In this document: piece by piece, positions 7,611 through 34,557 of the stretch
How positions within the stretch are numbered: position 1 is the stretch's first letter
Layout: each line of letters begins with the position of its first letter
Origin: a virus
DNA: 64,000 bases
IMG/VR virus record: IMGVR_UViG_3300042321_002027
Reading direction: 5' to 3' (one strand)
Program-made: the position numbers and the translations under genes
Notes under the pieces: generated by a model
Told to the model about the DNA's origin: nothing
Databases searched by the model: none
What the model saw: only the letters and a program-made list of their open reading frames with translations

Positions 7611-9179
7611 ATGGGTAAAATCCTTCCTTCCTACAAGAAAGCAGTAATTGATGAAATAGTGGACAATGTGTTCTCGAACACATCACATTATTACGCTTTT
7701 GCTGCTAATCCTGTAGCATATCCGGGTTCCGTTCCGGAAATATCGAACGAAGATTATTCGATTAATTTCATAAACGATTGGCTGATGTTATTTGGTAAAA
7801 AGATAACATCTTCTGAGATCGTTCCAGTCATATCTAAAAAAACTTGGGCTTCTGGTCAATTTTACGATCGTTATGACAACACATCAAATACAGTGTTGGC
7901 TAATAATAATTTTTATGTTATTTCTACACCATCAGTTATTGGCGGTAATTATAACATCTATAAGTGTATCGATAATGCTAATGGTTCAGTTTCTACTATT
8001 GATCCAGGCACAATAGGATCTCCTTCGCAACCTTCGACTTTCCAAACAAGCGATGGATATAAGTGGAGATATATGTATTCTATTACGGAATATAACAACG
8101 ACAGATTTTCTTCAGAAAATTTTGTCCCTGTATACGTCAGTGCAATAGTTTCTTCAACTGCTGCATCTTATAGCGGCGTAGAAGTTGTTATGATAACAAA
8201 TTCTGGTAGTGGCTACACTGCTTATACAAATGGCATCATTAGATCTGTACAGAATTCTACAATTGTACAGATAGAAAACTATGCTTCTTCTTCTGATAAT
8301 TTTTACGTAAATAACTCAATATACATCTACAACACTGTAGAAGCAACATCACAAATCAGAACAATTACAGATTATGTTGCGAACTCTAGCGGTAAGTTTG
8401 TGTTTGTTGCCAACACCAAGCCGTTTGAAATTACTAAAATAACAAGTGGTATAACTCAATACTTGATTAGTCCCGCTGTCGTTTTCGAAACTGACGGAGA
8501 TTCCGATCCTAAAGCATATTCTATAGTTAATACATCAAACTACTCTATCTCTAACGTTGTGATGCTAGATATCGGAACTAATATTTCTTGGGCTAATGTA
8601 AAAATTCAAAGTAGCTATGGTGACGGGGCAAATGTTTATGCTATCGTTCCTCCTCCTGGAGGCCATGCATACGATCCTATTACTGAATTGAACGCTAAAG
8701 GATTAGCAATCGCGTTTAATTTTTCTAATACAGAAGGCACTTCGATACCAACCGCAAACATTTTATACAATAAAATTGGTATTATCAGAAATCCTTATTC
8801 TTTGACATCTAACCTTACTACTGGAACAATTAGTAAAGGAGATCAGTATACTACAAATACATTTAATCAAATTTTAAAAGCTTCGGTTTCTCCTTCTACT
8901 ACTTTTACTCCAGGAGATTTTGTTCTTGGCGTTAATAGCGGTGCTAGAGGAATTGTTGTGTTTTCTAATACAACACAAGTTCATATCTCTGGTGATAAGT
9001 ATTTCATTAATAATGAGGGATTAGCCAATGCTTCAGGTTCTTACGTTTGTAACATTGCTATATCTCATGTTGGTGATGTATACACCAAAGATTTAAAACC
9101 AATTTACATTGACAACATAAATAATGTCAATCGCGCAAATACGCAAACAGAAGTCTTCAAATTGACAATAGAAATTTAA
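7611..9179 (+). CDS. gp8: baseplate wedge subunit gp8
   Basis: W.SG..YD.YD, YNIYKCIDN, TSDGYKWRYMYSI, PPGGH motifs. Confidence 0.85.
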   Translation: MGKILPSYKKAVIDEIVDNVFSNTSHYYAFAANPVAYPGSVPEISNEDYSINFINDWLMLFGKKITSSEIVPVISKKTWASGQFYDRYDNTSNTVLANNNFYVISTPSVIGGNYNIYKCIDNANGSVSTIDPGTIGSPSQPSTFQTSDGYKWRYMYSITEYNNDRFSSENFVPVYVSAIVSSTAASYSGVEVVMITNSGSGYTAYTNGIIRSVQNSTIVQIENYASSSDNFYVNNSIYIYNTVEATSQIRTITDYVANSSGKFVFVANTKPFEITKITSGITQYLISPAVVFETDGDSDPKAYSIVNTSNYSISNVVMLDIGTNISWANVKIQSSYGDGANVYAIVPPPGGHAYDPITELNAKGLAIAFNFSNTEGTSIPTANILYNKIGIIRNPYSLTSNLTTGTISKGDQYTTNTFNQILKASVSPSTTFTPGDFVLGVNSGARGIVVFSNTTQVHISGDKYFINNEGLANASGSYVCNIAISHVGDVYTKDLKPIYIDNINNVNRANTQTEVFKLTIEI

Positions 9180-23122: not shown

Positions 23123-26100
23123 ATGGCAGAAAAAGATTTCGTCGTAAAAAACGGCTTAATAGTAAACACCAGCTTGATTTTCGCTAACGGCGATATAGCT
23201 CGTGTAGGTATTAACAACACATCACCAGATGCATCATTAACAGTTACAGGAACAGCCAATGTTTCTGGCAACGTTATTTTGGGTGCAAACTTAACTGTTG
23301 TCAACACAGTTATTCCCTCTAATATTTTACTGGGCAACGCCTCAGTAAATGCCACACAAAACAGTTCCCTATTACAAATAGCAAACTCTACAGCAACAGC
23401 TAATTTAACTGCAGCTGACTTGAAAATCGGCACAACAACAGTTAACACAACTGCAGTTTCTGTCGGCGTTTCTCAGTTATCTAGCGTTAGAATATCAGTT
23501 GGTAATTCTACTGCCAATGCGTTTATGGGAAATAATGGCGTTAATACGGTATTACTAACTGTCGCCAATTCAACAATCGAAGTTGACATTACACCCGCTA
23601 GTATTACCATTGGTAATTCAGTTGCCAATTCAACTGTAAATTCTACTGCTTTTAATGGTACATCGAATAATTCAACTAATTTTGCCGGAGAGCCAGCCTC
23701 TTATTACGCGAATGCAGAAAACTTAACAAGCGGCACATTACTCAATGCTCGTTTGTCTGCTCAAGTCGTAAACACTTCTGGATCATTCACACTTTCTGGT
23801 AATACTACTCTTGCTGGCACAAATACAACTATTTCTAGTAACGTTAATATTACTGGGTCTTTCTTAAACGTAGCTTCAGCTTTTGTTACAAATTCTACTG
23901 GCGCTTACCATACAGGAACTATAAACGCTGCTTCACACACTGTTGGGGCAAACATTGTAGCTAATAGTACAGGTATTACATTTGTTGGAAACACTACAAA
24001 ACCAACCATTGCGATTTCTAATAGTGGTTCTATTGCTATTGGTAACAGCACTACAAATACCACAGCAATTTCTATATTATTAGCCAACGATTCTACAAGC
24101 GCAAGCATATCACCTGCTGGGTTTACTGGTAATGGATTTAACTTAACTGTAGCTGCCGCTAATATTACCAGCGGAACAATTGCCTCAGCTAGAATTTCGG
24201 GCGCATACACTGGTATAACTTCTGTTGGAACATTATCTACTCTAACATCAGGTAATGTCTCTTTAGGTTCTTCTTTACTACAAGTAAATTCTTCTGCTGG
24301 TAACATTAATACCGTTTCTATCGGAACTGCTAATGTCAACGTTGATTCCGGTGTTCTGTTTGTAGATAGTATTAATAACAGAGTTGGTATCAATAATACT
24401 GGACCAGATGCTGCGTTAACAGTAACAGGATCTGCTAACGTCTCTGGTGACTTGAGAGTTCAAGGTAACTTCTTTATCACAGGTACAACTACACAAACTG
24501 GTACAACAGAATATACTGGTTCTTTAACTCCTACTGCAAATGATATAAATCTTGGTAATGCGTCACAACTTTGGATCTTGTACGCCAACACTGGTTATTT
24601 TAACAGTAACGTTAATTTTGGGGCTAATCTATTAATTAATTCTGCTGCAGTAGTATGGACTGGCAACTCAACTACTTCGCCAACAATAACAATCGCAAAT
24701 AGCGGTAATGTTACCATTGGTAGCAGTACAACAACTCAAACTCTTGCCCGTTTGAATATCAGTAATACAGCTGGTAGTGTTAATATTACTACTGTTAACG
24801 TTTCTGTATCTAATTCTACCACAAGTGCAAATATCACAGCTGCTGGTTTTTTCGGAAATGGCTCTGCTTTAACTTCACTGAATGCTGATAACTTGACAAC
24901 AGGAACTCTCGCATACGCTAGAATTCCTGCTAATATTGTCAATACAACTGGCAGCTTTACATTATCAGGAAACACTATTCTTGGTGGTACAGGAACTGCA
25001 CTGTCAAGTAACATAATTCTTGGCGGTGCTTCTGTACTCATATCTTCAGAAGCTTCAAATATTAATGTTGTTGCAAACACAACAGGTTTCAATAGTACTA
25101 CTAATACTATATCTGTTTCTAACGCAAATATTAGAATGCAATTGAATGATAGAGTTTATTACGCGGTGCCTTCTGGTAATACGCCTATTGCTCCATTATC
25201 AGGCAACACTTATTACTTCGTTTCGTTTGTTAACAGCTCTGCAGTTGCGTTTTCTACGACAGCTGGCGGCGCTAACATTGATATATCCGATTCACGTACT
25301 ACAAATCCTGGCGAATCGCATAATATAAAGTTTGATACTTCTGTTGTTTATAATTCAGCATCAACAACCTCTGTATTCTCAGTAAATGCTAGCACTCTAA
25401 GTCATTCAGGAAGAATAAACGCTGCTTCACACACCGTTGGCGCTAATATTGTTGCTAACAGCACAGGCATTGTTTTTGTAGGCAATTCAACTACTTCACC
25501 AACAATAACTCTAGCTAACACTGGCTCGTTTACTATCGGTAGTGGTACCACTACACAAACCACTGCGTTGATTTCTCTAGCAAACTCTGTCGGTAGTGCA
25601 AATATCACAGCTGCTGGTTTCTTCGGTAATGGTGCTTCTCTTACATCGTTAAACGCTGATAATATTACTAGCGGAACATTGGCATACGCTAGAATTCCTG
25701 CTAACATCGTAAACACTAGTAGCAGCTTCACGTTATCTAGTGCTACATTAGGTGGTGCGAATACAACTGTTTCCAGCAATCTTAACGTTACTGGAACATT
25801 CCTAAACGTTGCTTCTGCTTTTGTAGTTAACTCTATTGGTGCATACCATACTGGTTTAATTAATGCCGCTTCACACAATTCTGGCGCAATAGGTACTGGT
25901 ACTGGTGGAACAGTACAAAACACTACTACTATGTTCCTTGGTAACAATACGATAAACACAGTAATTACTTCTGCGGGTTTAAATGTTAATGCTGTTACAG
26001 TAGCAAATAGCTCTGGTGTGTATACAACAACTGTTAATGCCGCAAGTCATACTGTTGGAGCAAACATTGTTGCCAACAGCACAGGTATTACATTTGTTGG

Positions 26101-27226
26101 AAATACTACAAAACCAACTATTGCGATTTCTAATAGTGGTTCCATAACTATCGGCAGTGGTAGTACTAATACTACAGCAATTTCTATATCATTAGCTAAC
26201 GATTCTACAAGCGCAAGTATAACACCTGCAGGATTTACTGGTAATGGTGCAAGCTTAACTTCACTAAATGCTACAAATATTACTAGCGGAACTTTAGATT
26301 ATGCTAGAATTCCTGCTAATATCGTAAACACCACAGCGGCGTTTACAAGAACTGGTATAACTACTTTCTCTGCTAATATCGTTCTTGGATCATCGGGCGT
26401 TTCTGCTAATGGCGGATTTGGTACAGCTGGACAAGTACTACACTCAAATGGCACTGCAACATACTGGGCAGCAGATGATAACTCAGGCGGTACAGTAACT
26501 TCTGTTGCTTCCGGAAATGGTATTACGGGTGGTACTATCACATCTTCGGGTACGCTTTTTGTAGTTCAAGGAACAGGTATTGTTGTAAACGCCACAGGCG
26601 TACACGTTAACTCTACGTATATCGGAACGTTAACAGCAAACAATTCTAACAATTTGAATGGCCAAGCCGCCTCGTTTTACGCTAATGCTGAAAACTTAAC
26701 TACTGGCGTGTTGCCAACAGCTAGATTGTCCGGAGCATATACAGGCATAAATCAAGTTGGCACTCTTTCGTTCTTTAGTGCTACAGGAAATGCTAACTTT
26801 GATTCTGGTGCATTGTTTGTAGACGGACTAAACAACAGAGTAGGAATTAATAATACTTCTCCTTCTGTTTCGTTGCAAATAACAGCAACAGATGCTATTT
26901 TTGTACCAATTGGTACTACTGCGCAAAGACCTAGTGGCGCAAACGGTATGTTGCGTTTCAATACAGACAGTAGTACTTTCGAAGGGTTCTCTAACAGTGC
27001 TTGGGGTAACATTGTAAGCACTAGCTCCGGTGGTTATTACAAGGGCAATAACGGCGCAATTGGTGCAACCGATAGCAGAAATAATTTATATAGAATAAAT
27101 TCTAATACACAAAGTAATAATATAACAATTATTGCAGGTGAAAATGCACTTACAGTAGGTCCAATGACCATTGCAGATGGATTTAACTTAACAATTGATA
27201 CAGGTGGAAGGGCAGTGATAGTCTAA
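23123..27226 (+). CDS. long tail fibre protein with internal repeats
   Basis: KDFVVKNGL N-terminus; NRVGINNT.P repeats; repeated NAASHTVGANIVANSTG and NIT.GTL.YARIPANIVNT modules; GTTAQRP...GMLRFNT motif; same C-terminal module as 19421. Confidence 0.85.
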   Translation: MAEKDFVVKNGLIVNTSLIFANGDIARVGINNTSPDASLTVTGTANVSGNVILGANLTVVNTVIPSNILLGNASVNATQNSSLLQIANSTATANLTAADLKIGTTTVNTTAVSVGVSQLSSVRISVGNSTANAFMGNNGVNTVLLTVANSTIEVDITPASITIGNSVANSTVNSTAFNGTSNNSTNFAGEPASYYANAENLTSGTLLNARLSAQVVNTSGSFTLSGNTTLAGTNTTISSNVNITGSFLNVASAFVTNSTGAYHTGTINAASHTVGANIVANSTGITFVGNTTKPTIAISNSGSIAIGNSTTNTTAISILLANDSTSASISPAGFTGNGFNLTVAAANITSGTIASARISGAYTGITSVGTLSTLTSGNVSLGSSLLQVNSSAGNINTVSIGTANVNVDSGVLFVDSINNRVGINNTGPDAALTVTGSANVSGDLRVQGNFFITGTTTQTGTTEYTGSLTPTANDINLGNASQLWILYANTGYFNSNVNFGANLLINSAAVVWTGNSTTSPTITIANSGNVTIGSSTTTQTLARLNISNTAGSVNITTVNVSVSNSTTSANITAAGFFGNGSALTSLNADNLTTGTLAYARIPANIVNTTGSFTLSGNTILGGTGTALSSNIILGGASVLISSEASNINVVANTTGFNSTTNTISVSNANIRMQLNDRVYYAVPSGNTPIAPLSGNTYYFVSFVNSSAVAFSTTAGGANIDISDSRTTNPGESHNIKFDTSVVYNSASTTSVFSVNASTLSHSGRINAASHTVGANIVANSTGIVFVGNSTTSPTITLANTGSFTIGSGTTTQTTALISLANSVGSANITAAGFFGNGASLTSLNADNITSGTLAYARIPANIVNTSSSFTLSSATLGGANTTVSSNLNVTGTFLNVASAFVVNSIGAYHTGLINAASHNSGAIGTGTGGTVQNTTTMFLGNNTINTVITSAGLNVNAVTVANSSGVYTTTVNAASHTVGANIVANSTGITFVGNTTKPTIAISNSGSITIGSGSTNTTAISISLANDSTSASITPAGFTGNGASLTSLNATNITSGTLDYARIPANIVNTTAAFTRTGITTFSANIVLGSSGVSANGGFGTAGQVLHSNGTATYWAADDNSGGTVTSVASGNGITGGTITSSGTLFVVQGTGIVVNATGVHVNSTYIGTLTANNSNNLNGQAASFYANAENLTTGVLPTARLSGAYTGINQVGTLSFFSATGNANFDSGALFVDGLNNRVGINNTSPSVSLQITATDAIFVPIGTTAQRPSGANGMLRFNTDSSTFEGFSNSAWGNIVSTSSGGYYKGNNGAIGATDSRNNLYRINSNTQSNNITIIAGENALTVGPMTIADGFNLTIDTGGRAVIV

Positions 27227-27723
27227 TGTCAAGCTTAACAACAACTACAGTAAACACCAAAGATGGTGTAACAAATTTAACTATGCAAACAGGCAATTCT
27301 GCAGCTGCTAGAATTGTTTTAGGATCTGCTGGTGGCATAACTCTAGGCGCAAATTCTTCAGCAAATGTTATAGTTGCCAACTCTACCCTGATTAACGTTT
27401 CAGCAAATGCCAATATGCTTACTGTTAATGCTTCGGCTTTAAACTTATCAGGCGCGAGTATCACTACTAGTGGATATAGCAGACTACCAAATGGATTACT
27501 TTTACAGTGGGGATCAGTTGTAGCAAACTCTACTTCAGGAACAATAACATTCCCAATTACATTTGCTGCTACGCCATATTCAGTGCAAATCACACCGCAA
27601 TCGACTGGTGGCACTAACACTGCAGTAGGTCATGCGGTAACTGCAACAACAACCACTACTGCAACGGTCAGAACCACTAATGCAGTATCATTCACATATT
27701 ATTATATGGCTCTAGGAGTTTAA
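27226..27723 (+). CDS. fibre-tip protein with GYSRLPNGLLLQWG domain
   Basis: TAATG coupling to the long fibre gene; C-terminal domain paralogous to that of 6785. Confidence 0.7.
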   Translation: MSSLTTTTVNTKDGVTNLTMQTGNSAAARIVLGSAGGITLGANSSANVIVANSTLINVSANANMLTVNASALNLSGASITTSGYSRLPNGLLLQWGSVVANSTSGTITFPITFAATPYSVQITPQSTGGTNTAVGHAVTATTTTTATVRTTNAVSFTYYYMALGV

Positions 27724-27726
27724 TTA

Positions 27727-28275
27727 ATGTCAACATTACAGGTCGCAAACATACATCTTGAGTCTACAGCCAATAACAGAATACAGCATATGGGCTCAAA
27801 CACTATTACTCTATTTACTGGAGGTTTAGCCGCCTTTACTGCTAATGACACTACCACATTGGTAAGATTAGGTGGAGCAAATGCTTACATTACTAACTCA
27901 ACTGGTAATTTTTTCGGAAGTAACACTCTCATTGGTCCAGGATCTGTAAGCACTGGTTATAGATTGTATGTTAATGGAACTATCTACGCAACAGGCGATA
28001 TTACCGCTCTTTCGGATATTTCTGTTAAGGACAATATCATGACAATAACAAACGCTCTTGATACTGTAGGTAATCTAAGAGGTGTTTCTTATACAGTTAA
28101 GGAAACTGGCGAAGGAAAAATAGGTCTTATTGCTCAGGAAGTTAAGAAAGTGTTGCCTGAAGTTGTTGTAGAAAACTCAGACAATATTGGTATTGCTTAT
28201 CAAAACATAGTAGCTGTTCTGATCGAAGCTGTAAAAGAGTTGAAAAAGAAAGTTGAAAATTTGGAGTCTAAGTAA
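27727..28275 (+). CDS. short fibre-tip protein with intramolecular chaperone (peptidase S74) domain
   Basis: GDITAL-SD.SVKDNI, LRGVSY, IGLIAQEV..VLPEVV, Y..IVAVLIEAVKEL motifs. Confidence 0.85.
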   Translation: MSTLQVANIHLESTANNRIQHMGSNTITLFTGGLAAFTANDTTTLVRLGGANAYITNSTGNFFGSNTLIGPGSVSTGYRLYVNGTIYATGDITALSDISVKDNIMTITNALDTVGNLRGVSYTVKETGEGKIGLIAQEVKKVLPEVVVENSDNIGIAYQNIVAVLIEAVKELKKKVENLESK

Positions 28276-28278
28276 ATT

Positions 28279-29463
28279 ATGGTAGCGACAACTAATGTTT
28301 CTTTTGCTGCTATTTCTTTGGAGTTAGATGGAACTCCAGGAACAGCATTTAGTATGAGTAATGCTTTTATGAGGTCTACTCTTAGCACTGGACCTTCGAC
28401 TCCAGGTACAGCCATTAGCATAACTGATGTTGCTGGTGCATTTTATAAAACGTTTACCATTAGCACAAACACAGCCAATTATAACATATATGACGCAATT
28501 GCTGCAGCTGGATGGACTGGTATTAAAAGAGCAACAGCAAACGTAACTCTTGTTTCTCCTTCACCAACTACTGCTGTCCAAACTGTGTTATATTCAACAT
28601 CAACTGCTAACGCTGCTTTAGAATCTGGATCGTTTCCTGGTTCCGCGCCTGCAAATGTCAGAATAGTTACTGGTGTAAACACATTTATTGTAGGAATGGG
28701 TGGTGCAGGTGGTGCAGGTGGGACTGCTTCTGCTCCTACTCCACCATCAGGAACAAATTACGCTACTGATCCTGGTGATCCTGGATCGCCCGGAGGCCAT
28801 GCAATACGACTAACTTCTGCAGCAACATATACTATCGTAAACTCCGGTACTATTGGCGGTGGTGGTGGTGGTGGAGGTGGAGGTGGAGATTGGGATTCTT
28901 CGTCAGCACTACCGGACCCTTCTCCTTGTTTAGCTGCTGATAGCCAAATATTAATGTATGATGGCACCACAAAAAATATTTGTGATATAGTTTCTGGAGA
29001 TAAATTAAAAACGCTTACAGGCGAAATAGGTACTGTGCTTTATTTAAATCCAACTACGTTAAAACGACACAGAAAAATTGTTCGTTTAAAAATTAATGAA
29101 AATGCAAAACCATTAAGAATTACTGACGATCATGAGTTGTGGATTAAAGACGAAACAGGCGAACGTTTTGGTGTTTACAATTATAATAGCTGGTTACAAG
29201 ACGAAATTACTACACCATCGTATAAATCTGGCGACCCGATATACGATATGAAAATTTTATCTCCTTTAGGTGTTCATAATTTTGCTACTGTAGATGGATG
29301 GTCAGAAACTAGCTGCGAATGGGAAATAAACTCTGATCCAGAAGAACCTGTTTATTGCATTATGTTAGACAAAGGAGTAGGTTTTATAGCGGATGGGTTT
29401 GTTGTCGCTAATGATGACTGGTATGATGAAGAATTGATCGGAGTTTCTTGGAAAGGCGTATGA
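28279..29463 (+). CDS. gp38-like glycine-rich adhesin, N-terminal half, fused to a Hint domain
   Basis: GMGGAGG, GGHAI...IVNSGTIGGGGGGG motifs as in T-even gp38; follows an S74-bearing tip protein; aa 217-378 form a Hint domain. Confidence 0.75.
   Translation: MVATTNVSFAAISLELDGTPGTAFSMSNAFMRSTLSTGPSTPGTAISITDVAGAFYKTFTISTNTANYNIYDAIAAAGWTGIKRATANVTLVSPSPTTAVQTVLYSTSTANAALESGSFPGSAPANVRIVTGVNTFIVGMGGAGGAGGTASAPTPPSGTNYATDPGDPGSPGGHAIRLTSAATYTIVNSGTIGGGGGGGGGGGDWDSSSALPDPSPCLAADSQILMYDGTTKNICDIVSGDKLKTLTGEIGTVLYLNPTTLKRHRKIVRLKINENAKPLRITDDHELWIKDETGERFGVYNYNSWLQDEITTPSYKSGDPIYDMKILSPLGVHNFATVDGWSETSCEWEINSDPEEPVYCIMLDKGVGFIADGFVVANDDWYDEELIGVSWKGV
28927..29412 (+). other. Hint (intein/BIL/Hedgehog-like) autoprocessing domain
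   Basis: Block A CLAADSQILMYDG..KNICDI..GD, block B LRITDDHELW, block F/G PVYCI...FIADGFVVAN; the +1 residue is Asp; no endonuclease domain. Confidence 0.8.
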
Positions 29464-30110
29464 ATTGTATTTTCGCTATGGGGTTGTACAGATCGGGAAC
29501 TAATTTTTTACAACAGCTTCTTGACAAAAACTTTAAGTATAACTCTACAGTAATTGAAAAATATACTATAGAAGGTAAATTATACAAGCATTGTTTACAC
29601 GATAGTTGGTATAACAAGATGCCAAACGATGTTGTTCCGGTAATCATATATAAAGATCCATTTAAATGGATTGATAGTTTATACCGAAAGTCTTATGATT
29701 TAGAATTGTTTTATGACGTACATTATGAAACAGGGCATACAGAGATATATTTACCGTTTGAAGACCCTGATAATGAAGGGTATGTTGCAGAAGTTCGTTG
29801 CAGCGTAGAAAAACTTTGTAGACTGTACAATAGGTATTTTACATATTGGTCGAATAAAAATGTTGAAATGATTTCACATAAAAAAATAATTTGTGAAACT
29901 GAAAATTGTTTATCTTATTTTCAAAATAAATATTCCTTACAAAGGATAAATGAAAATTTTACCATGTTGAAAGTTGATGAAGTAGATGGATCAAGACCTT
30001 TTACTCAACAGGTAAAATTGTACTATGATACTAATGAAATTGAAAATTTAAACGATGTTCAAATTAAAACAATAAAATCAACTATTGATGTAATATTAAA
30101 GGAGTTTTAA
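29460..30110 (+). CDS. sulfotransferase-like protein
   Basis: 5'-PSB-like GLYRSGTNFL and 3'-PB-like IYKDPFKWIDS motifs; ATGA overlap at 29460 preferred over the TTG at 29448. Confidence 0.7.
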   Translation: MNCIFAMGLYRSGTNFLQQLLDKNFKYNSTVIEKYTIEGKLYKHCLHDSWYNKMPNDVVPVIIYKDPFKWIDSLYRKSYDLELFYDVHYETGHTEIYLPFEDPDNEGYVAEVRCSVEKLCRLYNRYFTYWSNKNVEMISHKKIICETENCLSYFQNKYSLQRINENFTMLKVDEVDGSRPFTQQVKLYYDTNEIENLNDVQIKTIKSTIDVILKEF

Positions 30111-30111
30111 A

Positions 30112-30426
30112 ATGGCCGGAGGAGGCGGAGGTGGAGGCAGAGGAGGATTAACCAATTCTGCAGGAGGACCTGGGGCGTCTCCAGCAGCAGGTGCTGGAAC
30201 ATTTGCAGGCGCTGGCACTGGATCACCGCAGCCTGGAGTTCCAGGTAATGGTGGAAATGGAGGAAATTGGGGTGCAAATGGAAGCAGCGGAACCGCAACC
30301 AGTCCTCCAGGACCAGCACCAGCTGCTACAGGTCCTGGAGGATCTGGTGGAACTTCTGGTAATGCAATTTCAAATTCCGCAGGTATAACTTTTACATATT
30401 CTGGGGCAGGTAGTAGGTTCGCATAA
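30112..30426 (+). CDS. gp38-like glycine-rich adhesin, C-terminal half
   Basis: GGGGGGGRGG...GGNGGNWG...GGSGGTSGNAI...GSRFA matches the C-terminal half of gp38-type adhesins; own AAGGAG SD 7 nt upstream. Confidence 0.7.
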   Translation: MAGGGGGGGRGGLTNSAGGPGASPAAGAGTFAGAGTGSPQPGVPGNGGNGGNWGANGSSGTATSPPGPAPAATGPGGSGGTSGNAISNSAGITFTYSGAGSRFA

Positions 30427-31431
30427 ATGTTTGACAGAGAATGGGCGTTTAAAAATGGTGATGATATTTCACCAAGAAAGTTACCATATTTTTATACAGA
30501 TCCTGTAACTAATACAGTTATAGAAATGACAAATTGTAACTATGATACTAAAAAAAACCTTGGTTGGTATCAAATTGAATTTAAAAATAATTACGAAAAT
30601 AGACCTAACACTCATTGGGAAAGCGTTGGAACATTATACTATAACAAATTAAATGACTCTGTAGAATGCCATTCTTTTGTCTTGAAAGATGGTTGGAGAA
30701 ATATATTATATCAAGAAATTGAAACATTAATACTAAGTTATCTAGGCGAGCCAACAGAAAAAATTACGAATTTACTATCAAAAATAAATTTGTATTTTAT
30801 GAATGAGAAATATGACAATTACCAGCTAGTAGAATATTATAAGATATTTAAAAATTCTGCTTATGACATAGCCATATTCGTTGATAATGTTAACGAATAT
30901 GAAATAGATGGTATTACTGCTTTTGAATTATTGTTTTATGCAGAACCTAATTTTAGACAACAACCTATATTGATGAATTACATTAAGCAAAATTTAAACG
31001 ATTTTGCTGGTAAAAACATAATTTCTTTAGGTTTAACTTCTAGTTTAACAGCTGCATATTTTAATAAAAATAATTTTAGTAGTAAAGCTCTAGATAACAT
31101 TTTCTACCATTCAACGAAATTTAAAAAGTTTCATGTCAATTTAAATTGCGTTTTAACAGCAATAAACAACGATTTGTATTTTGATGTGCTAACAAAGGAT
31201 AATTTTGACGATATTGACGGGGATGTTTTCATATTCGCTAATCCATTTTACGATACAGAATCTGCAGCCATCAATTTACAGTACATGCAAACATTAAAAC
31301 AAAAAGGCAAAAGAACTATTATTCTTTCGCCTTCATTGTGGAACGGAAATAATGAATTTATTACGTTTCCTAAAGAAAATTTACAAGAGCTTTATACAGA
31401 AAATGGAATTACTTTATTTACTCTCAAGTAA
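30427..31431 (+). CDS. hypothetical protein with possible degenerate class I SAM-methyltransferase C-terminal domain
   Basis: NYIKQN...FAGKNIISLG and DVFIFANPFYD resemble motif I and motif IV of protein methyltransferases; the glycine loop is degenerate; AT-rich. Confidence 0.4.
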   Translation: MFDREWAFKNGDDISPRKLPYFYTDPVTNTVIEMTNCNYDTKKNLGWYQIEFKNNYENRPNTHWESVGTLYYNKLNDSVECHSFVLKDGWRNILYQEIETLILSYLGEPTEKITNLLSKINLYFMNEKYDNYQLVEYYKIFKNSAYDIAIFVDNVNEYEIDGITAFELLFYAEPNFRQQPILMNYIKQNLNDFAGKNIISLGLTSSLTAAYFNKNNFSSKALDNIFYHSTKFKKFHVNLNCVLTAINNDLYFDVLTKDNFDDIDGDVFIFANPFYDTESAAINLQYMQTLKQKGKRTIILSPSLWNGNNEFITFPKENLQELYTENGITLFTLK

Positions 31432-32629
31432 AATGTGGTCCGTGAATCCAACCAACTAAAGATTTTCTGACACCTTTTGTAACAGGGGTTACTTCGTGTT
31501 CTGTATAGGCGGGAAAAAACGCAATTAATCCTTTTTTCTTAGGCATGGCTTCTGCACCTCTACTAGACCAAATTAATAGATCTCCGCCTTCATATTCGCT
31601 AGGATCAGAGAGAAGCAAGCTGAAAGAAAGCTTTCTTGTTTTGTGTATCACTCCGTCCGTATGTTTGGTGTATTTGCCAGGAGTTTTATCATCAGCATGA
31701 TATTCAATATATGTCAAGTGTTCTATTTTATCTAAATTAAATTTGTAGTTTTCTAAATTTTGTTTTGCGACTTCTTTTTCAATTAACTTATATAACCATT
31801 CGAAATTTTTAGGATCGATACCAGCAACATATGCGTTTCTTATGTCTTTGTTTATTGATTCCCCTTTGCCGCCGTAACCTATGGTAGCTTGTTCTAGTTC
31901 ATTTTTACCACCTTCGACAATTAAATCAATTAAACCGCTAGACAAAAATTTTTCTTCGTAAACCCAAAGATGTTTTTCTTCTTGTTTATTACCAAAATAC
32001 CAAAATCTATCGTCATATTCTTTTCTTGGTTTTTGAGCTTGTAAAATTGGTTCTTGTTTTGTTGTTTTTAAAGATTTTCTTCCATCATACTCTAAATCTT
32101 TATACTTACCATTAGCATCAACATAATGTAAGAAAACCTGGCACTGCCAATTTCCTTCCTTGTATGGTTGTCTCCAATGATTGATTTCCATACCTCTATA
32201 GATAAGAGCATCACCCAATTCGACTCTATATTCTCTAGGATTATCCTTTGAATCAGTAGATTCTGACAGCCATATTGGCCATAAGTTACCATCGAATCCT
32301 AGCGTAATCGTTGCGCTAATTTCGCATTCTCTTCTGTCGGTGTGAGGTTTTAATTTTTCTCCAGGCTTATAAAAACGAGCGTAAGAGTAAGTAGGATTTA
32401 ACTTCAACCCTGTTGATTCTTCCATTGCTGGCTTTAAATCTTCTAACAAAGTGTCAAACACCGAATCCCCATAAATAGAGGGCGATAAAGGACACTGATG
32501 GTCTCCTTCTTTTAAATCTTTTGATATTTTGATAAGATGTTCAGATAACATTGAACAAGTTTTATCATCAAGAATTTTGGTGATATGGACATACTTGTTG
32601 TTTTTGAAGTATTCTTGTGGCGTGCTCAT
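31424..32629 (-). CDS. tandem two-domain 2OG-Fe(II) oxygenase (prolyl-hydroxylase/PKHD-like)
   Basis: Domain 1: PTYSYAR...PHTDR...HWR...QVFLHYV. Domain 2: KHTDG..RKLS.S..LSDPSEYEGG...HEVTPVTKGVRKSLVGW. AGGAGAG SD on the minus strand. Confidence 0.88.
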   Translation of the reverse strand: MSTPQEYFKNNKYVHITKILDDKTCSMLSEHLIKISKDLKEGDHQCPLSPSIYGDSVFDTLLEDLKPAMEESTGLKLNPTYSYARFYKPGEKLKPHTDRRECEISATITLGFDGNLWPIWLSESTDSKDNPREYRVELGDALIYRGMEINHWRQPYKEGNWQCQVFLHYVDANGKYKDLEYDGRKSLKTTKQEPILQAQKPRKEYDDRFWYFGNKQEEKHLWVYEEKFLSSGLIDLIVEGGKNELEQATIGYGGKGESINKDIRNAYVAGIDPKNFEWLYKLIEKEVAKQNLENYKFNLDKIEHLTYIEYHADDKTPGKYTKHTDGVIHKTRKLSFSLLLSDPSEYEGGDLLIWSSRGAEAMPKKKGLIAFFPAYTEHEVTPVTKGVRKSLVGWIHGPHFT

Positions 32630-32688: not shown

Positions 32689-34557
32689 ATGTCAGAACTA
32701 CGAGTTTCAACTTTGAATGTTACAGGTAATTTATCTGCTAACACTATTTATGATCCTGATTATGCAAAGAGCATAAACTCTACTAGCGTAGGTATAGATC
32801 CTGGTTCTTATATTGGGTTTACTAGTAACGTTGCTTCTATTAAGTCTGGTTCGATTACTTTAAAAACACCAGTTGCATTTTCGAATTTAACTGTCAATAG
32901 TGTATCCGTAACAAAAATTTACTCAGAAACAGTAAACGCGCAAATATTTACTGCCAATGGAACTTGGTCAAAACCAACTTGGGCTAACACAGGCAACGAG
33001 CTTGTTATGGTTCAAATGTGGGGTGGTGGTGGTTCAGGCAGTCACGATCCTGGAGCAACTGCTGCTGGTGGAGGAGGCGGTGCTTATGTGCAAGGGTATT
33101 TCAAAGCAATTCAGTGTAATTCTGTTTGTAACGTTGTTGTTGGAGTAGGTGGAGCAGTACCTGCCGACGAAAATCCAGGAAACAATGGTGGAAACTCTAT
33201 TTTTTATGCTAATACCACAATCAGTTTAGTTGCTTACGGTGGAGCTGGTGGGTTTGCTAACACTACTGCCACAGGCGGTGGTGCTGGTGGCGGTTGGTTG
33301 GGCGTTGGAACATCTACGGGTGTTGCAGCTACTGGTGGTGCACCACTAGGAGGAACCATAAGTGCGACAGAATCTACAAGAACTTCTACATTTGGTGGTG
33401 GAGCCGGATCAAACTCTTCTACGGGCGGTATCGGCGGATCTTCAGTTTATGGCGGGGGTGGCGGGGGTTACCAAACATCTGCTGGGGGTTCTTCTATTTT
33501 TGGTGGTGGTGGTGGCACTTTTGTCGCTGCTGCAGGATCTTCAGTTTATGGTGGTCGCGGAGCAAACAGCACTCTAACAGTTGCTGGGATTCCTGGTGGT
33601 GGTGGAACTATTACTGGTGCTGGCGCTCGTGGCGAAGTCAGAGTATACACATTTAGATATCTAGATGAAGTTCAAACAAGATACGTTCTTACTACTCCTG
33701 GAGAAACAGCAGTAAAAGTTCCTGCAGGATACACAACAGCCACAATTAAACTTTGGGGTGGTGGTGGAGGCGGAGGCGCTTCTTGGTCTGGTTTAGGTGG
33801 TATTGGTGGTGCTGGAGGATTTGTAAAAGGCACAGTTTCAGTTACTGCTGGTGAAACATTGTTTGCATTTACTGCTGAAGGCGGAGAAGGTGGACTTACT
33901 GCACCAAACGGTGGTGGTTCAGGTGGATCTTGGTCTGGTGTTTTCAGAGGTTCAACTCCGTTACTTATAGCTGGCGGTGGTGGCGGCGGAGGTGGTGGTC
34001 GTGATGCTACATACGCTGGCGGTTCTGGTGGAGGTGGTGGTGGAACCACAGGTCTATCAGGCGGCGGAGGTACTGCTCTAGGTGGTGGCGGCGGATCTCA
34101 AGTTGCTGGGGGTGCCGGGCGCGAGGGTGATAGTGCTACTGCATCATCTGGTGGTTATCTTTTTGGTGGCGATGCTGTCAACGCAAGTAGAGCAGCTGCT
34201 CTAAATGGTTCCGATGGTATTATAACAGCTACTTCAGGATTATCTGGTAGAGGTGGTTATGAAAGTGGACGTGGCTCCGGTGGTGGCGGTGGTGCTGGTT
34301 ATTACGGAGGCGGCGGTGGTGCTCGAGGCGGTAACGGTAACGATGACTCTGGTGGTGGAGGAGGTGGCGGTTCAAGTTACGTTACTGGCGCAACATCCGT
34401 AACAAACACACAAGGTTCGTCTGGATCTACTACTGCTCCTGGAAATGCTGATGCTGATTATAGAAGCGGTGTTGCTGCTGGTGGTAATAGAGGCGCAGTT
34501 TCTGGAGATTCAGGATCTTACGGTGGTAATGGATTGGTAGTTATAGAGTTTGCATAA
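32689..34557 (+). CDS. glycine-rich tail/adhesin protein with two Gly-rich domains
   Basis: IFTANGTWSKP...MWGGGGSG...GARGEVRV domain followed by a VPAG....IKLWGGGGGG...GGNGLVVI domain. Confidence 0.75.
   Translation: MSELRVSTLNVTGNLSANTIYDPDYAKSINSTSVGIDPGSYIGFTSNVASIKSGSITLKTPVAFSNLTVNSVSVTKIYSETVNAQIFTANGTWSKPTWANTGNELVMVQMWGGGGSGSHDPGATAAGGGGGAYVQGYFKAIQCNSVCNVVVGVGGAVPADENPGNNGGNSIFYANTTISLVAYGGAGGFANTTATGGGAGGGWLGVGTSTGVAATGGAPLGGTISATESTRTSTFGGGAGSNSSTGGIGGSSVYGGGGGGYQTSAGGSSIFGGGGGTFVAAAGSSVYGGRGANSTLTVAGIPGGGGTITGAGARGEVRVYTFRYLDEVQTRYVLTTPGETAVKVPAGYTTATIKLWGGGGGGGASWSGLGGIGGAGGFVKGTVSVTAGETLFAFTAEGGEGGLTAPNGGGSGGSWSGVFRGSTPLLIAGGGGGGGGGRDATYAGGSGGGGGGTTGLSGGGGTALGGGGGSQVAGGAGREGDSATASSGGYLFGGDAVNASRAAALNGSDGIITATSGLSGRGGYESGRGSGGGGGAGYYGGGGGARGGNGNDDSGGGGGGGSSYVTGATSVTNTQGSSGSTTAPGNADADYRSGVAAGGNRGAVSGDSGSYGGNGLVVIEFA

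What the first reader, a model, noticed from the sequence alone, without database searches (positions are those of the whole stretch)
28279..30426. gp38-like adhesin split in two by a Hint domain and a sulfotransferase-like gene: possible Hint-dependent assembly of a receptor-binding protein
Seen: ORF 28279 runs like a gp38-type adhesin up to ...GGHAI...NSGTIGGGGGGGGGGGDWDSSSALPDPSP. It then switches at Cys217 into a Hint domain and stops 16 aa after the Hint Asn. After an intervening sulfotransferase-like gene, ORF 30112 resumes with the missing half (MAGGGGGGGRGG...GGNWG...GGTSGNAI...GSRFA) and has its own AAGGAG SD. Known: T2/S16-type gp38 is one chain of glycine-rich motifs separated by variable loops, ends in GSR-x, and caps a gp37 carrying an S74 chaperone; an S74 protein is directly upstream here. 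The Hint keeps Cys1 and the TxxH block needed for thioester formation. It ends A-N|D, without the penultimate His or a +1 Cys/Ser/Thr, so canonical cis-splicing is unlikely. Inference: the split falls in a variable loop and both halves look intact. One option is Hint self-cleavage followed by non-covalent assembly of the halves. Another is attack on the thioester by the Ala-Gly7 N-terminus of the second half (trans-ligation; the phage encodes a deformylase). A third is attack by a small molecule, Hedgehog-style.
Basis: partly seen in the sequence, partly recalled or inferred. Interest (0 to 1): 0.9.

Follow-up and report, generated by a model that had tools for sequence, protein, structure and literature searches.

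The report
Phage adhesin gene split by Hint
An uncultured T4-like phage makes its tail-fibre tip adhesin from two separate genes, and the first piece carries a self-processing Hint (intein-like) cap; relatives have kept this layout through long divergence, so it is a working and unusual way to build a receptor-binding protein.

Summary
ORF 28279-29463 is the N-terminal two thirds of a gp38-like glycine-rich adhesin (aa 1-216) fused at Cys217 to a complete Hint domain. ORF 30112-30426 is the missing C-terminal third, and a sulfotransferase-fold gene (29460-30110) lies between them. Unsplit homologues of 300-325 aa align across both pieces, and the break falls in a hypervariable loop between two poly-Gly motifs.

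The layout recurs in independent metagenome assemblies down to 53% identity. All four parts are under purifying selection, so it is neither an artefact nor a pseudogene. A complex prediction has the two pieces co-folding (0.78 against 0.00 for controls).

New here:
- The Hint belongs to a large unannotated family of C-terminal caps on phage tail proteins. Cys1 and the TxxH His are near-invariant, the 16-aa tail is part of the domain, and the terminal Asn is kept only in the split-gp38 clade.
- The sulfotransferase gene is not required for the split: one sister lineage lacks it.
- The closest solved structure is Tetrahymena BIL2, which hands its N-extein to amines.

Most likely the Hint cuts itself off and the pieces assemble non-covalently. 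Ligation to the second piece is not excluded.

This scan has noted Hint caps on phage adhesins on other DNA, but not a conserved split adhesin.

The parts
27727..28275 (+). 182-aa fibre-tip protein with a C-terminal Peptidase_S74 intramolecular chaperone; the likely docking site for the adhesin
   Evidence: Pfam PF13884 E 1.1e-14. PHROG tail-fibre families match. The same gene precedes the adhesin in L001, L004, L019, L022 and L023.
28279..28926 (+). N piece of the gp38-like adhesin (aa 1-216): attachment region plus the first glycine-rich motifs
   Evidence: Pfam GP38 31.5 bits against a 25-bit cut-off. It aligns to the first two thirds of unsplit 300-325-aa homologues (A5). dN/dS is 0.10-0.26.
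28855..28887 (+). poly-Gly motif (aa 193-203) that ends the N piece's conserved core; a (GGN)n DNA repeat
   Evidence: G194-G202 are invariant in A5. It forms a direct repeat with 30118-30142.
28888..28926 (+). hypervariable Pro-rich junction loop DWDSSSALPDPSP (aa 204-216), with Pro at -1
   Evidence: It is one of the most variable stretches of the N piece among 13 homologues, second only to aa 151-160 in the 10-aa bins. Length and sequence differ even between homologues 83-94% identical, and -1 is always Pro.
28927..29463 (+). Complete Hint (BIL-like) domain, aa 217-394. Cys217 is at 28927-28929, T282xxH285 at 29122-29133 and Asn378 at 29410-29412. The conserved 16-aa tail is at 29413-29460 and the stop at 29461-29463.
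   Evidence: AF2 model has pLDDT 96.1 including the tail. Foldseek top hits are BIL2 6y75 (E 1.6e-8), then inteins, BIL 2lwy and Hedgehog 1at0. Across the family Cys is 68/68 and His 67/68. dN/dS is 0.08-0.19.
29460..30110 (+). 216-aa sulfotransferase-fold gene, translationally coupled (ATGA) to the Hint ORF; an accessory gene not needed for the split
   Evidence: AF2 model has pLDDT 87.7. VIA-align gives Z 11.5, rmsd 3.2-3.5 over 178-180 residues, to tyrosylprotein and cytosolic sulfotransferases. The RSGTN P-loop is invariant. Pfam Sulfotransfer_3 scores only 17.2 bits against a 27-bit cut-off. The gene is absent from L019.
30099..30104 (+). Shine-Dalgarno AAGGAG for the C piece
   Evidence: Read directly from the sequence. 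GGAG-type elements sit upstream of the C piece in all six loci listed.
30112..30426 (+). C piece of the gp38-like adhesin (104 aa): the remaining glycine-rich motifs and the C-terminal ...GSRFA end
   Evidence: It aligns to the last third of unsplit homologues at 39-51% identity, with GGGGGR, GGxGG and ITx motifs invariant (A1 and A6). dN/dS is 0.24-0.45. It is predicted to interdigitate with the N piece.

Best explanation
This is a two-gene gp38-like tail-fibre adhesin. Gene 1 is translated as a 41-kDa precursor: adhesin residues 1-216, a hypervariable Pro-rich loop, then a BIL-type Hint cap (217-394). The Hint performs an N-S acyl shift at Pro216-Cys217. The resulting thioester is resolved by water, so the 20-kDa Hint leaves and the N piece ends in a free loop at the receptor-binding face. 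Gene 3 is translated on its own from its own ribosome-binding site as an 8.7-kDa C piece. The two pieces co-fold non-covalently into one glycine-rich sandwich, which sits on the fibre tip matured by the S74 chaperone protein encoded just upstream. The Hint only needs its N-terminal half-reaction, because a stop codon and a restart replace the C-terminal splice junction. The sulfotransferase-fold gene between the pieces is a passenger or accessory modifier and not part of the joining mechanism.

Shown: the gene architecture, the homology of both pieces to unsplit adhesins, a complete Hint fold with conserved Cys/His, conservation with purifying selection, and predicted co-folding. Inferred: the cleavage itself, hydrolysis as the outcome, and the position of the loop on the binding face.
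For: 1. Unsplit 300-325-aa homologues span both pieces. The break lies between ...GGGGGGGG and GGGGGGGR, where they have a 10-20-aa variable loop.

2. The gene order S74 protein, N piece-Hint, 216-aa gene, C piece, 334-aa gene, 2OG oxygenase is kept in L004, L005 and L023 (83-94% identity) and L001 (53%). L022 (56%) matches as far as its contig reaches, up to the cut-off C piece. A sister lineage, L019, has N piece-Hint followed directly by the C piece.

3. The Hints of split adhesins form one clade (100/100) with long internal branches. That points to one old event that has been maintained.

4. dN/dS is below 0.5 for the N piece, Hint, enzyme and C piece.

5. The Hint model has pLDDT 96. The best PDB matches are BIL2, inteins, Cth BIL and Hedgehog.

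6. Across 68 C-terminal caps, Cys1 is 68/68, the block-B His 67/68 and S/T 65/68, while the terminal Asn is not conserved. The family's shared chemistry is therefore the N-terminal half-reaction only. In most members the Hint ends the protein, and the three non-gp38 contexts examined (L016, L017, PSTNGR1) show no recognisable second half.

7. Complex prediction of the N piece with the C piece scored 0.78, with the best of 3 controls at 0.00. That mark was reached by 58 of 80 solved complexes and 2 of 110 mismatched pairs; these counts hold only roughly because my own alignments were used. The runs agree in at least 94% of contacts, the partner's pLDDT is at least 77, and there are about 367 contacts through the Gly-rich motifs of both chains. 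Halves of a split gene can pass by likeness to the solved gp38 structure (6F45), so this shows likeness to one domain and not binding.

8. The junction loop is one of the most variable segments of the N piece, as expected of a receptor-facing loop that should be uncovered.
Against: - No processing has been observed; everything about the chemistry is inference.
- The -1 residue is Pro in all 13 split proteins. From my knowledge of engineered inteins (Sce VMA, Mxe GyrA), Pro at -1 strongly slows N-terminal cleavage.
- The terminal Asn is retained only in the split clade. Simple N-cleavage does not explain that.
- It is unclear what advantage a cleavable cap gives over a plain stop codon.
- The closest solved structure, BIL2, resolves its thioester with an amine, not with water.
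Confidence: 0.5

Rival explanations
1. Trans-ligation. Co-folding of the two pieces places the free alpha-amine of the C piece (after Met removal) next to the Pro216-Cys217 thioester. Aminolysis then makes a normal peptide bond, giving one 319-aa, 29.6-kDa gp38-like chain and a free Hint.
For: - The best structural match is Tetrahymena BIL2 (E 1.6e-8). BIL2 transfers its N-extein to amines of other proteins without ATP (PMC8616854).
- From my memory of Dassa et al. 2004 (JBC 279:32001, reference 69 in PMC7765530), an A-type BIL splices by aminolysis without a +1 nucleophile.
- The joined loop would have a natural length: about 9-17 aa against 10-20 aa in unsplit homologues.
- The second residue of every C piece is Ala, Pro or Val. 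From my knowledge of MetAP specificity, all three allow Met excision.
- The split clade has a distinctive Hint, with the terminal Asn kept and -1 Pro.
Against: - The N-termini of the C pieces are not conserved (MAGGG, MPANGG, MVDNPGSGG). Two lineages would present a Pro secondary amine to a Pro-thioester.
- The other family members whose contexts were examined (L016, L017, PSTNGR1) have no second piece, so ligation is not the family's ancestral job.
- The C piece has no intein fragment or docking motif.
- There is no junction peptide evidence.
Confidence: 0.15
2. The thioester is used for something else, or the Hint is not removed. Either the cap stays on the virion at the adhesin tip, or its thioester is resolved by another nucleophile. 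That could be a small molecule (Hedgehog-style C-terminal adduct), another virion protein, or an amine on the host surface (covalent adhesion).
For: - Cys and His are near-invariant, which implies that thioester chemistry matters.
- The Hint has a conserved insert (WGxYNYNxW, aa 297-305) and a conserved tail that could form a binding site.
- Transferase and 2OG-oxygenase genes recur next to Hint-capped tail proteins.
- Pro at -1 may slow spontaneous cleavage (plus my knowledge of inteins).
- The attachment point is a hypervariable, presumably receptor-facing loop.
Against: - There is no sterol- or adduct-recognition domain after the Hint, only 16 aa.
- The neighbouring enzymes are not constant: none in L019, a methyltransferase-like gene in L017.
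- A 20-kDa cap on a binding loop would probably block it.
- There is no precedent in phages.
Confidence: 0.2
3. A decaying gene. A Hint-plus-enzyme cassette landed in the adhesin gene and killed it. The phage relies on its other glycine-rich adhesins (for example 32689-34557), and the pieces are leftovers.
For: - (GGN)n direct repeats bracket the insert.
- The phage encodes other Gly-rich tail proteins.
- The enzyme family moves among phage contexts.
Against: - Both pieces keep open frames, start codons and SD sites across lineages down to 53% identity, and in the L019 clade.
- dN/dS is 0.10-0.45.
- The split clade has a single origin followed by long persistence.
Confidence: 0.04
4. An assembly chimera, or an RNA-level join (intron) that restores one reading frame.
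For: - Both adhesin ORFs are in the same frame.
- Earlier 'split gp38' cases in this scan were artefacts or point mutations.
Against: - The same layout appears in at least 8 independent assemblies from different samples and pipelines.
- About 20 in-frame stops and a conserved enzyme gene fill the gap.
- No Rfam intron or other RNA family matches in 28000-31000.
Confidence: 0.01

Closest known systems
Fractured genes (Dassa et al. 2009, NAR 37:2560; PMC2677866)
   Same: A phage gene is broken into two ORFs at an intein-type element, with a free-standing gene lodged between the pieces. They were found in environmental phage DNA.
   Different: In fractured genes each piece carries half of a split intein, and the halves trans-splice. 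The inserted gene is a homing endonuclease, and the hosts are DNA-metabolism enzymes. Here the whole Hint sits on the first piece and the second piece has no intein fragment. The inserted gene has a sulfotransferase fold and is dispensable (L019). The host is a virion adhesin.
Bacterial intein-like (BIL) domains, including Tetrahymena BUBL BIL2 (PDB 6Y75/6TMM) and C. thermocellum BIL (2LWY)
   Same: It has the Hint fold with Cys1 and the block-B His, and no +1 nucleophile. It lies in a hypervariable region of a non-conserved protein, and autoprocessing rather than clean splicing is expected. These are the best structural matches (PMC7765530; PMC8616854).
   Different: No Pfam Hint family reaches threshold, and identity to BIL2 is about 14%. 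The domain ends the polypeptide with a short conserved tail. It ends in Ala-Asn rather than the His-Asn of A-type BILs. The host is a phage tail protein, and the rest of the host domain is encoded by another gene.
T2/S16-type gp38 adhesin on a gp37 tip matured by an S74 chaperone (PF05268; PDB 6F45)
   Same: It has glycine-rich motifs separated by variable loops and a Pfam GP38 match. The gene lies directly after an S74-bearing fibre-tip gene, and an N-terminal attachment region is present.
   Different: Sequence similarity to 6F45 is only marginal (E 0.13). The protein is made from two genes, and a Hint cap is attached to an internal loop. The S74 module is on a separate 182-aa protein and not at the end of a long gp37.
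Hedgehog/Hog C-terminal autoprocessing domain (PDB 1AT0)
   Same: It is a C-terminal Hint that activates the last residue of the cargo as a thioester and leaves (rank 38).
   Different: There is no sterol- or adduct-recognition region, only a 16-aa tail. It is phage-encoded, and the cargo is an incomplete domain.
C-terminal Hint caps on phage adhesins and bacterial surface proteins noted earlier in this scan (e1-3279561, e1-700115, e1-1467668)
   Same: These are Hint caps at the end of fibre or adhesin proteins, with transferase genes sometimes adjacent and the same closest PDB entries.
   Different: Those cargos are complete proteins. Here the cap interrupts a single fold whose remainder is a separate gene.

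Membership tests
gp38 adhesin (Pfam PF05268, T2/S16 type) | Match to the GP38 profile above the gathering score | tested here: met
   N piece scores 31.5 bits against a 25-bit cut-off, E 2e-7. The C piece alone gives no hit. Unsplit homologue P0014 gives a sub-threshold match across profile positions 4-216 of 218.
gp38 adhesin (Pfam PF05268, T2/S16 type) | One polypeptide that contains all glycine-rich motifs | tested here: not met
   There are two ORFs, separated by a Hint domain, a stop codon and a 216-aa gene.
gp38 adhesin (Pfam PF05268, T2/S16 type) | Glycine-rich motifs fold into one polyglycine-II sandwich | tested here: inconclusive
   The complex prediction supports co-folding through the Gly-rich motifs (0.78 against a best control of 0.00). 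Coordinates were not inspected, and the pass may reflect likeness to 6F45.
gp38 adhesin (Pfam PF05268, T2/S16 type) | Gene follows a fibre-tip gene with an S74 intramolecular chaperone | tested here: met
   ORF 27727-28275 matches PF13884 with E 1.1e-14. The same holds for unsplit homologues in L007 and L009.
Canonical (class 1) intein | Cys/Ser/Thr as first residue and block B TxxH | tested here: met
   Cys217 and T282-D-D-H285 are present.
Canonical (class 1) intein | C-terminal Asn followed by a Cys/Ser/Thr +1 nucleophile | tested here: not met
   Asn378 is present, but +1 is Asp379 (Gln in P0051).
Canonical (class 1) intein | In-frame insertion with the host protein continuing after it | tested here: not met
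   Only 16 conserved residues follow and then a stop. These residues belong to the folded domain: the tail has pLDDT 93-95 and Trp391 is kept in 55/68.
Split intein / fractured gene | Host gene in two ORFs with a free-standing gene between them | tested here: met
Split intein / fractured gene | N-intein fragment on piece 1 and C-intein fragment on piece 2 | tested here: not met
   The complete Hint fold, including blocks F and G, is on piece 1. Piece 2 starts directly with the GGGGGGGR motif of the adhesin.
Split intein / fractured gene | The intervening gene is a homing endonuclease | tested here: not met
   It has a sulfotransferase fold: Z 11.5 over 178-180 of 216 residues.
Bacterial intein-like (BIL) / Hint autoprocessing domain | Hint fold | tested here: met
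   The model has pLDDT 96.1. Foldseek probability is 1.00 to BIL2 (E 1.6e-8), inteins, BIL 2lwy and Hedgehog 1at0.
Bacterial intein-like (BIL) / Hint autoprocessing domain | Sits in a variable region of a non-conserved protein, without a +1 nucleophile | tested here: met
   The junction loop is hypervariable, +1 is Asp or Gln, and the cargos across the family are varied.
Bacterial intein-like (BIL) / Hint autoprocessing domain | Match to a curated Hint/BIL profile (Pfam Hint, Hint_2, Vint, PT-HINT) | tested here: not met
   There are only sub-threshold hits, to Vint (15.3 bits against 27), Hom_end_hint (14.5 against 32.1) and Hint (14 against 29.7), and only over the first 70-80 residues.
Bacterial intein-like (BIL) / Hint autoprocessing domain | Autocatalytic cleavage at the N-terminal junction | not testable with these tools
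   This needs expression and mass spectrometry.
Hedgehog/Hog domain | Hint followed by a sterol/adduct-recognition region | tested here: not met
   Only 16 residues follow the Hint core.
PAPS-dependent sulfotransferase (the gene at 29460-30110) | Sulfotransferase fold with a 5'-phosphosulfate-binding loop | tested here: met
   Z is 11.5, rmsd 3.2-3.5, against TPST1/2 and SULTs. The GLYRSGTN loop is invariant in 11 homologues.
PAPS-dependent sulfotransferase (the gene at 29460-30110) | Curated profile match above threshold | tested here: not met
   Sulfotransfer_3 scores 17.2 bits against a 27-bit cut-off, over residues 8-32 only.

The most novel reading that the evidence does not exclude
A complete, unsplit Hint domain acts as a one-shot ligase between two separately encoded polypeptides. 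Co-folding of the adhesin pieces positions the alpha-amine of the second piece to attack the Hint thioester on the first. This would be a natural counterpart of expressed protein ligation that needs neither an N-terminal Cys nor an intein fragment on the acceptor, and it would rebuild a full-length receptor-binding protein. A variant reading is that the thioester survives on the virion and reacts with a host-surface amine, giving covalent adsorption.
Probability: 0.15. Interest if true: 0.9.

Novelty: new variant of a known kind. Interest (0 to 1): 0.62.

Why it matters
Hint domains are known as inteins (selfish, trace-free), as Hedgehog-type lipidating modules and as poorly understood BIL domains. 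This locus shows a Hint embedded in the construction of a phage receptor-binding protein, kept by selection, where only the N-terminal half-reaction can matter.

- If it simply cleaves, it shows how a fold can be tolerated as two genes: a 'one-sided intein' plus a translational restart. It would also extend the 'fractured gene' idea to structural proteins.
- If it ligates or transfers, it is a new natural protein-ligation route, with clear use as a tool for Cys-free ligation driven by fragment complementation.

It also points to a large, unannotated family of Hint caps on phage tail proteins. That matters for annotating receptor-binding proteins and for engineering host range in laboratory phages. 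The question is directly testable with two plasmids and a mass spectrometer.

Tried and rejected
- No whole genome is held for this window.
- blastn of the locus against GenBank phages found nothing. By protein search only Providencia phage PSTNGR1 matched.
- The word-indexed search with the 104-aa C piece returned no hit at E 1e-5, probably because of its low-complexity composition. C pieces were therefore collected from fetched loci instead.
- With the neighbouring 334-aa and S74 proteins, the search for related loci gave only near-identical contigs or unrelated fibre loci. No close T4-like relative with an unsplit adhesin at this position was found.
- Rfam showed no intron or other RNA family in 28000-31000.
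- Profile searches of both adhesin pieces against PDB sequences gave only a marginal hit to S16 gp38 for the N piece (E 0.13) and none for the C piece.
- I considered Tyr382 in the acidic tail DDWYDEE as a target of the sulfotransferase and dropped the idea. The Tyr is Phe in P0011 and P0012, and absent in P0052, although those loci also carry the enzyme.
- I considered a Lys in the tail as a BIL2-like acceptor and dropped it. Lys392 is Arg in P0011 and P0012 and absent in P0051.
- I considered a strict Hint-enzyme module and rejected it, because of L019, L020 and L021.
- The paper by Dassa et al. 2004 could not be read here. What I say about it is from memory.
Full report
**Setting.** The window is part of an uncultured T4-like myovirus. 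Major head protein, portal and sheath are recognisable at 52636, 47478 and 44135. No whole genome is held, and no GenBank phage matches the locus at DNA level. The finding lies in a tail-fibre operon:

| Coordinates | Product |
|---|---|
| 23123-27226 | 1367-aa fibre |
| 27226-27723 | Gp53-like_C protein |
| 27727-28275 | 182-aa protein ending in a Peptidase_S74 chaperone |
| 28279-29463 | ORF with the adhesin N piece and the Hint |
| 29460-30110 | 216-aa gene |
| 30112-30426 | ORF with the adhesin C piece |
| 30427-31431 | 334-aa unknown |
| 31424-32629 (minus strand) | 2OG-Fe(II) oxygenase |
| 32689-34557 | 622-aa Gly_rich_2 protein |

**Observation.**
- ORF 28279 matches Pfam GP38 above threshold (31.5 bits).
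- It reaches ...NSGTIGGGGGGGGGGGDWDSSSALPDPSP and continues from Cys217 into a Hint with T282DDH285.
- The Hint ends VVAN378|D, followed by 16 residues and a stop.
- The stop overlaps the ATG of the 216-aa gene (ATGA).
- The 104-aa ORF follows that gene's stop by one base and has AAGGAG 7 nt upstream.
- The two adhesin ORFs share a frame, but about 20 stops separate them.

**Is it really one adhesin in two pieces?** Yes.
- A search of 5.8 billion proteins found 12 proteins with the same N piece-Hint build (53-94% identity). It also found about 35 unsplit gp38-like proteins of 245-326 aa, most of them 300-325 aa; 216 + 104 = 320.
- In the unsplit proteins the motif ...NNGTIGGGGGGGGGG is followed by a 10-20-aa variable loop, then GGGGGGGR..., and they end ...TGTRLGAIx.
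- The 104-aa ORF aligns to this last third at 39-51% identity, with the GGGGGR, GGxGG and ITx motifs invariant (A1 and A6).
- So the break lies exactly in a loop between two glycine-rich motifs.
- A complex prediction of the N piece with the C piece, each with its alignment, scored 0.78, with the best of 3 controls at 0.00. That mark was reached by 58 of 80 solved complexes and 2 of 110 mismatched pairs, and these counts hold only roughly because my own alignments were used. The runs agree in at least 94% of contacts, the partner's pLDDT is at least 77, and about 367 contacts run through the Gly-rich segments of both chains.
- Halves of a split gene can pass by likeness to solved gp38 (6F45). 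I take the result as 'looks like one domain', not as proof of binding.

**Is it real and functional?**
- The gene order is the same in L004, L005, L023 (83-94%) and L001 (53%). L022 (56%) matches as far as its contig reaches, and a contig held without DNA (P0010, 69%) has the same gene order. These come from different samples and assemblers.
- A more distant lineage (L019; Hint 49% identical) has the S74 protein, then N piece-Hint, then directly a C piece (MVDNPGSGGGGGRSG...), with no enzyme gene in between.
- A maximum-likelihood tree of 34 Hint domains puts all split-adhesin Hints in one clade (100/100). The path length between the window and L019 types is 1.36 changes per site. This points to one old event that has since been maintained.
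- dN/dS against three relatives is 0.10-0.26 (N piece), 0.08-0.19 (Hint), 0.13-0.19 (enzyme) and 0.24-0.45 (C piece).
- Every C piece keeps its own start codon and a GGAG-type site.
- Rfam finds no intron.
- Artefact and pseudogene readings are therefore very unlikely. This matters because earlier 'split gp38' cases in this scan were an assembly joint and a point mutation.

**What the Hint is.**
- An exhaustive profile search with residues 216-394 found 130 clusters. In about 67 of them the whole domain, including the tail, lies at the very end of proteins of many sizes.
- Several of these look like tail or receptor-binding proteins, for example P0052 (629 aa), P0053 (335 aa) and P0085 (494 aa).
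- In an alignment of 68 such caps, Cys217 is invariant and His285 is 67/68. S/T282 is 65/68, Trp288 64/68 and the tail Trp391 55/68. The position of Asn378 is S, A or G in nearly all.
- Asn occurs there only in the split-adhesin clade (VAN|DD, ICN|QD) and in three fragments ending VHNC or VHNK, which I take to be truncated true inteins.
- The AF2 model is very confident (pLDDT 96.1), and the tail is ordered.
- Foldseek's best PDB hits are BIL2 of the Tetrahymena BUBL1 locus (E 1.6e-8, TM 0.64-0.76). Inteins, the C. thermocellum BIL and the Hedgehog autoprocessing domain follow.
- Pfam's Hint models only reach sub-threshold scores.
- Block A (CLAADSQILMYDGTTKNICDI) closely resembles block A of true inteins in a DnaB-like and a D5-like gene of other viral contigs.
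- The only GenBank phage with this cap is Providencia phage PSTNGR1. Its 317-aa 'hypothetical protein' has a gp38-like N-terminal adaptor, another head domain and the Hint.
- BFVD lists several uncultured-phage 'Hint domain containing' proteins.
- The domain is thus a BIL-like, C-terminal autoprocessing cap that is common on phage tail proteins. The conserved chemistry is the N-S acyl shift only.

**The gene in the gap.**
- Its AF2 model (pLDDT 87.7) aligns over its whole length to tyrosylprotein and cytosolic sulfotransferases (Z 11.5, rmsd 3.2-3.5, 178-180 residues). Foldseek E-values are weak (1.7e-3).
- The GLYRSGTN loop is invariant. The language-model search also points to a sulfotransferase cluster.
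- A 24%-identical homologue (E 1e-14) follows, with overlapping stop and start, the Hint-capped 629-aa protein of L016. No second piece exists there.
- The family also occurs next to a ferredoxin gene (L020) and a GMP-reductase-like gene (L021), and L019 lacks it.
- It is therefore an accessory gene and not part of the joining device. What it sulfates is unknown.

**Mechanism.** What is shown:
- a precursor with a complete Hint whose catalytic Cys/His are under strong constraint
- a separately translated second piece
- predicted co-folding
- a junction loop that is one of the most variable parts of the N piece, as expected of a receptor-facing loop

What is inferred: the Hint forms a thioester at Pro216-Cys217 and leaves.

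I rate hydrolysis followed by non-covalent assembly as most likely (0.5). The three non-gp38 family members whose gene contexts I examined show no second piece to ligate to, so self-removal is the simplest common function. A stop plus restart makes a C-terminal splice reaction unnecessary.

Ligation to the alpha-amine of the C piece (0.15) has real precedents. BIL2 conjugates its N-extein to amines. From memory of Dassa et al. 2004, A-type BILs splice by aminolysis. The second residues of the C pieces (A, P, V) permit Met removal. However, the acceptor N-termini are not conserved.

A retained cap, or another nucleophile, gets 0.2.

Two features remain unexplained by simple cleavage. Pro at -1 occurs in all 13 split proteins, and in engineered inteins this slows cleavage (my knowledge). 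Asn378 is kept only in this clade.

**Comparison with known systems.**
- The closest arrangement is the 'fractured gene' of Dassa et al. 2009. There both pieces carry split-intein halves, the insert is a homing endonuclease and the hosts are DNA enzymes. Three defining features are not met here.
- The domain works like a BIL/Hog autoprocessing module. It matches no curated profile and has no adduct-recognition region.
- The adhesin is a distant gp38 relative by Pfam, but it fails the 'single chain' feature.
- This scan has already noted C-terminal Hint caps on phage adhesins and bacterial surface proteins on other DNA, sometimes beside transferase genes. A conserved Hint-split adhesin had not been noted.
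- I found no paper that describes either.

**Verdict.** This is a real, conserved and unusual architecture: a new variant of known kinds (BIL-type Hint cap, fractured gene, gp38-like adhesin). The chemistry is open and easily testable.

Noticed in passing
window 28852-28888 and 30118-30142: The two poly-Gly coding runs are imperfect (GGN)n direct repeats 1254 nt apart, and they bracket the loop, Hint and enzyme insert. They could have been the recombination site that created the split. They could also delete the insert, leaving a shortened fused adhesin.
   Followed up: partly
L006:3554-4507 (Providencia phage PSTNGR1, MW145136.1, QPB11246.1): This annotated 'hypothetical protein' of a cultured Autographiviridae phage has a gp38-like N-terminal adaptor (MALPSSGPITMAQIAAEIG...), an unknown head domain and a C-terminal Hint cap of this family. 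Cys is kept and the terminal Asn is replaced by Ser. It lies just after the tail-fibre gene and is a tractable model for testing Hint processing.
   Followed up: partly
window 31424-32629 (-); L016:6509-7649 and 8317-8808; L017:6944-8140: 2OG-Fe(II) oxygenase (prolyl-hydroxylase-type) genes recur within a few genes of Hint-capped tail proteins whose linkers are Pro-rich. In L017 a methyltransferase-like gene overlaps the end of the Hint gene, where this window has a sulfotransferase-like gene.
   Followed up: partly
L020:3426-4232 and L021:2917-3576: Homologues of the 216-aa sulfotransferase-fold protein (QRSGTNFLQQ loop) occur in other phage contigs next to a ferredoxin gene and a GMP-reductase-like gene. 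The family is a widespread, unannotated phage accessory enzyme.
   Followed up: partly
L011:5443-8670 and L012:4207-7977: A DnaB-like helicase and a D5-like primase-helicase of other viral contigs carry true inteins. Their block A (C[LF]AKGTK[IV][LM]MYDGTTKN[IV]EDI) is nearly identical to the start of this Hint cap, which suggests the cap derives from phage or giant-virus inteins.
   Followed up: no
L028:4381-6312: A 643-aa adhesin follows an S74-bearing fibre. It has the same N-terminal adaptor motif (MALPLSGDLSFNQIGIEI...) as gp38-like proteins but a quite different, Gly-poor head. The adaptor appears to be a portable module for capping S74-matured fibre tips.
   Followed up: no
window 30427-31431: This 334-aa gene is tightly coupled to the C piece and conserved in L001, L004 and L023. 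It has no Pfam or PHROG match, and its function is unknown.
   Followed up: no
window 32689-34557: This 622-aa protein matches Pfam Gly_rich_2 and has very long poly-Gly runs. It is a second, unsplit glycine-rich tail protein in the same operon.
   Followed up: no
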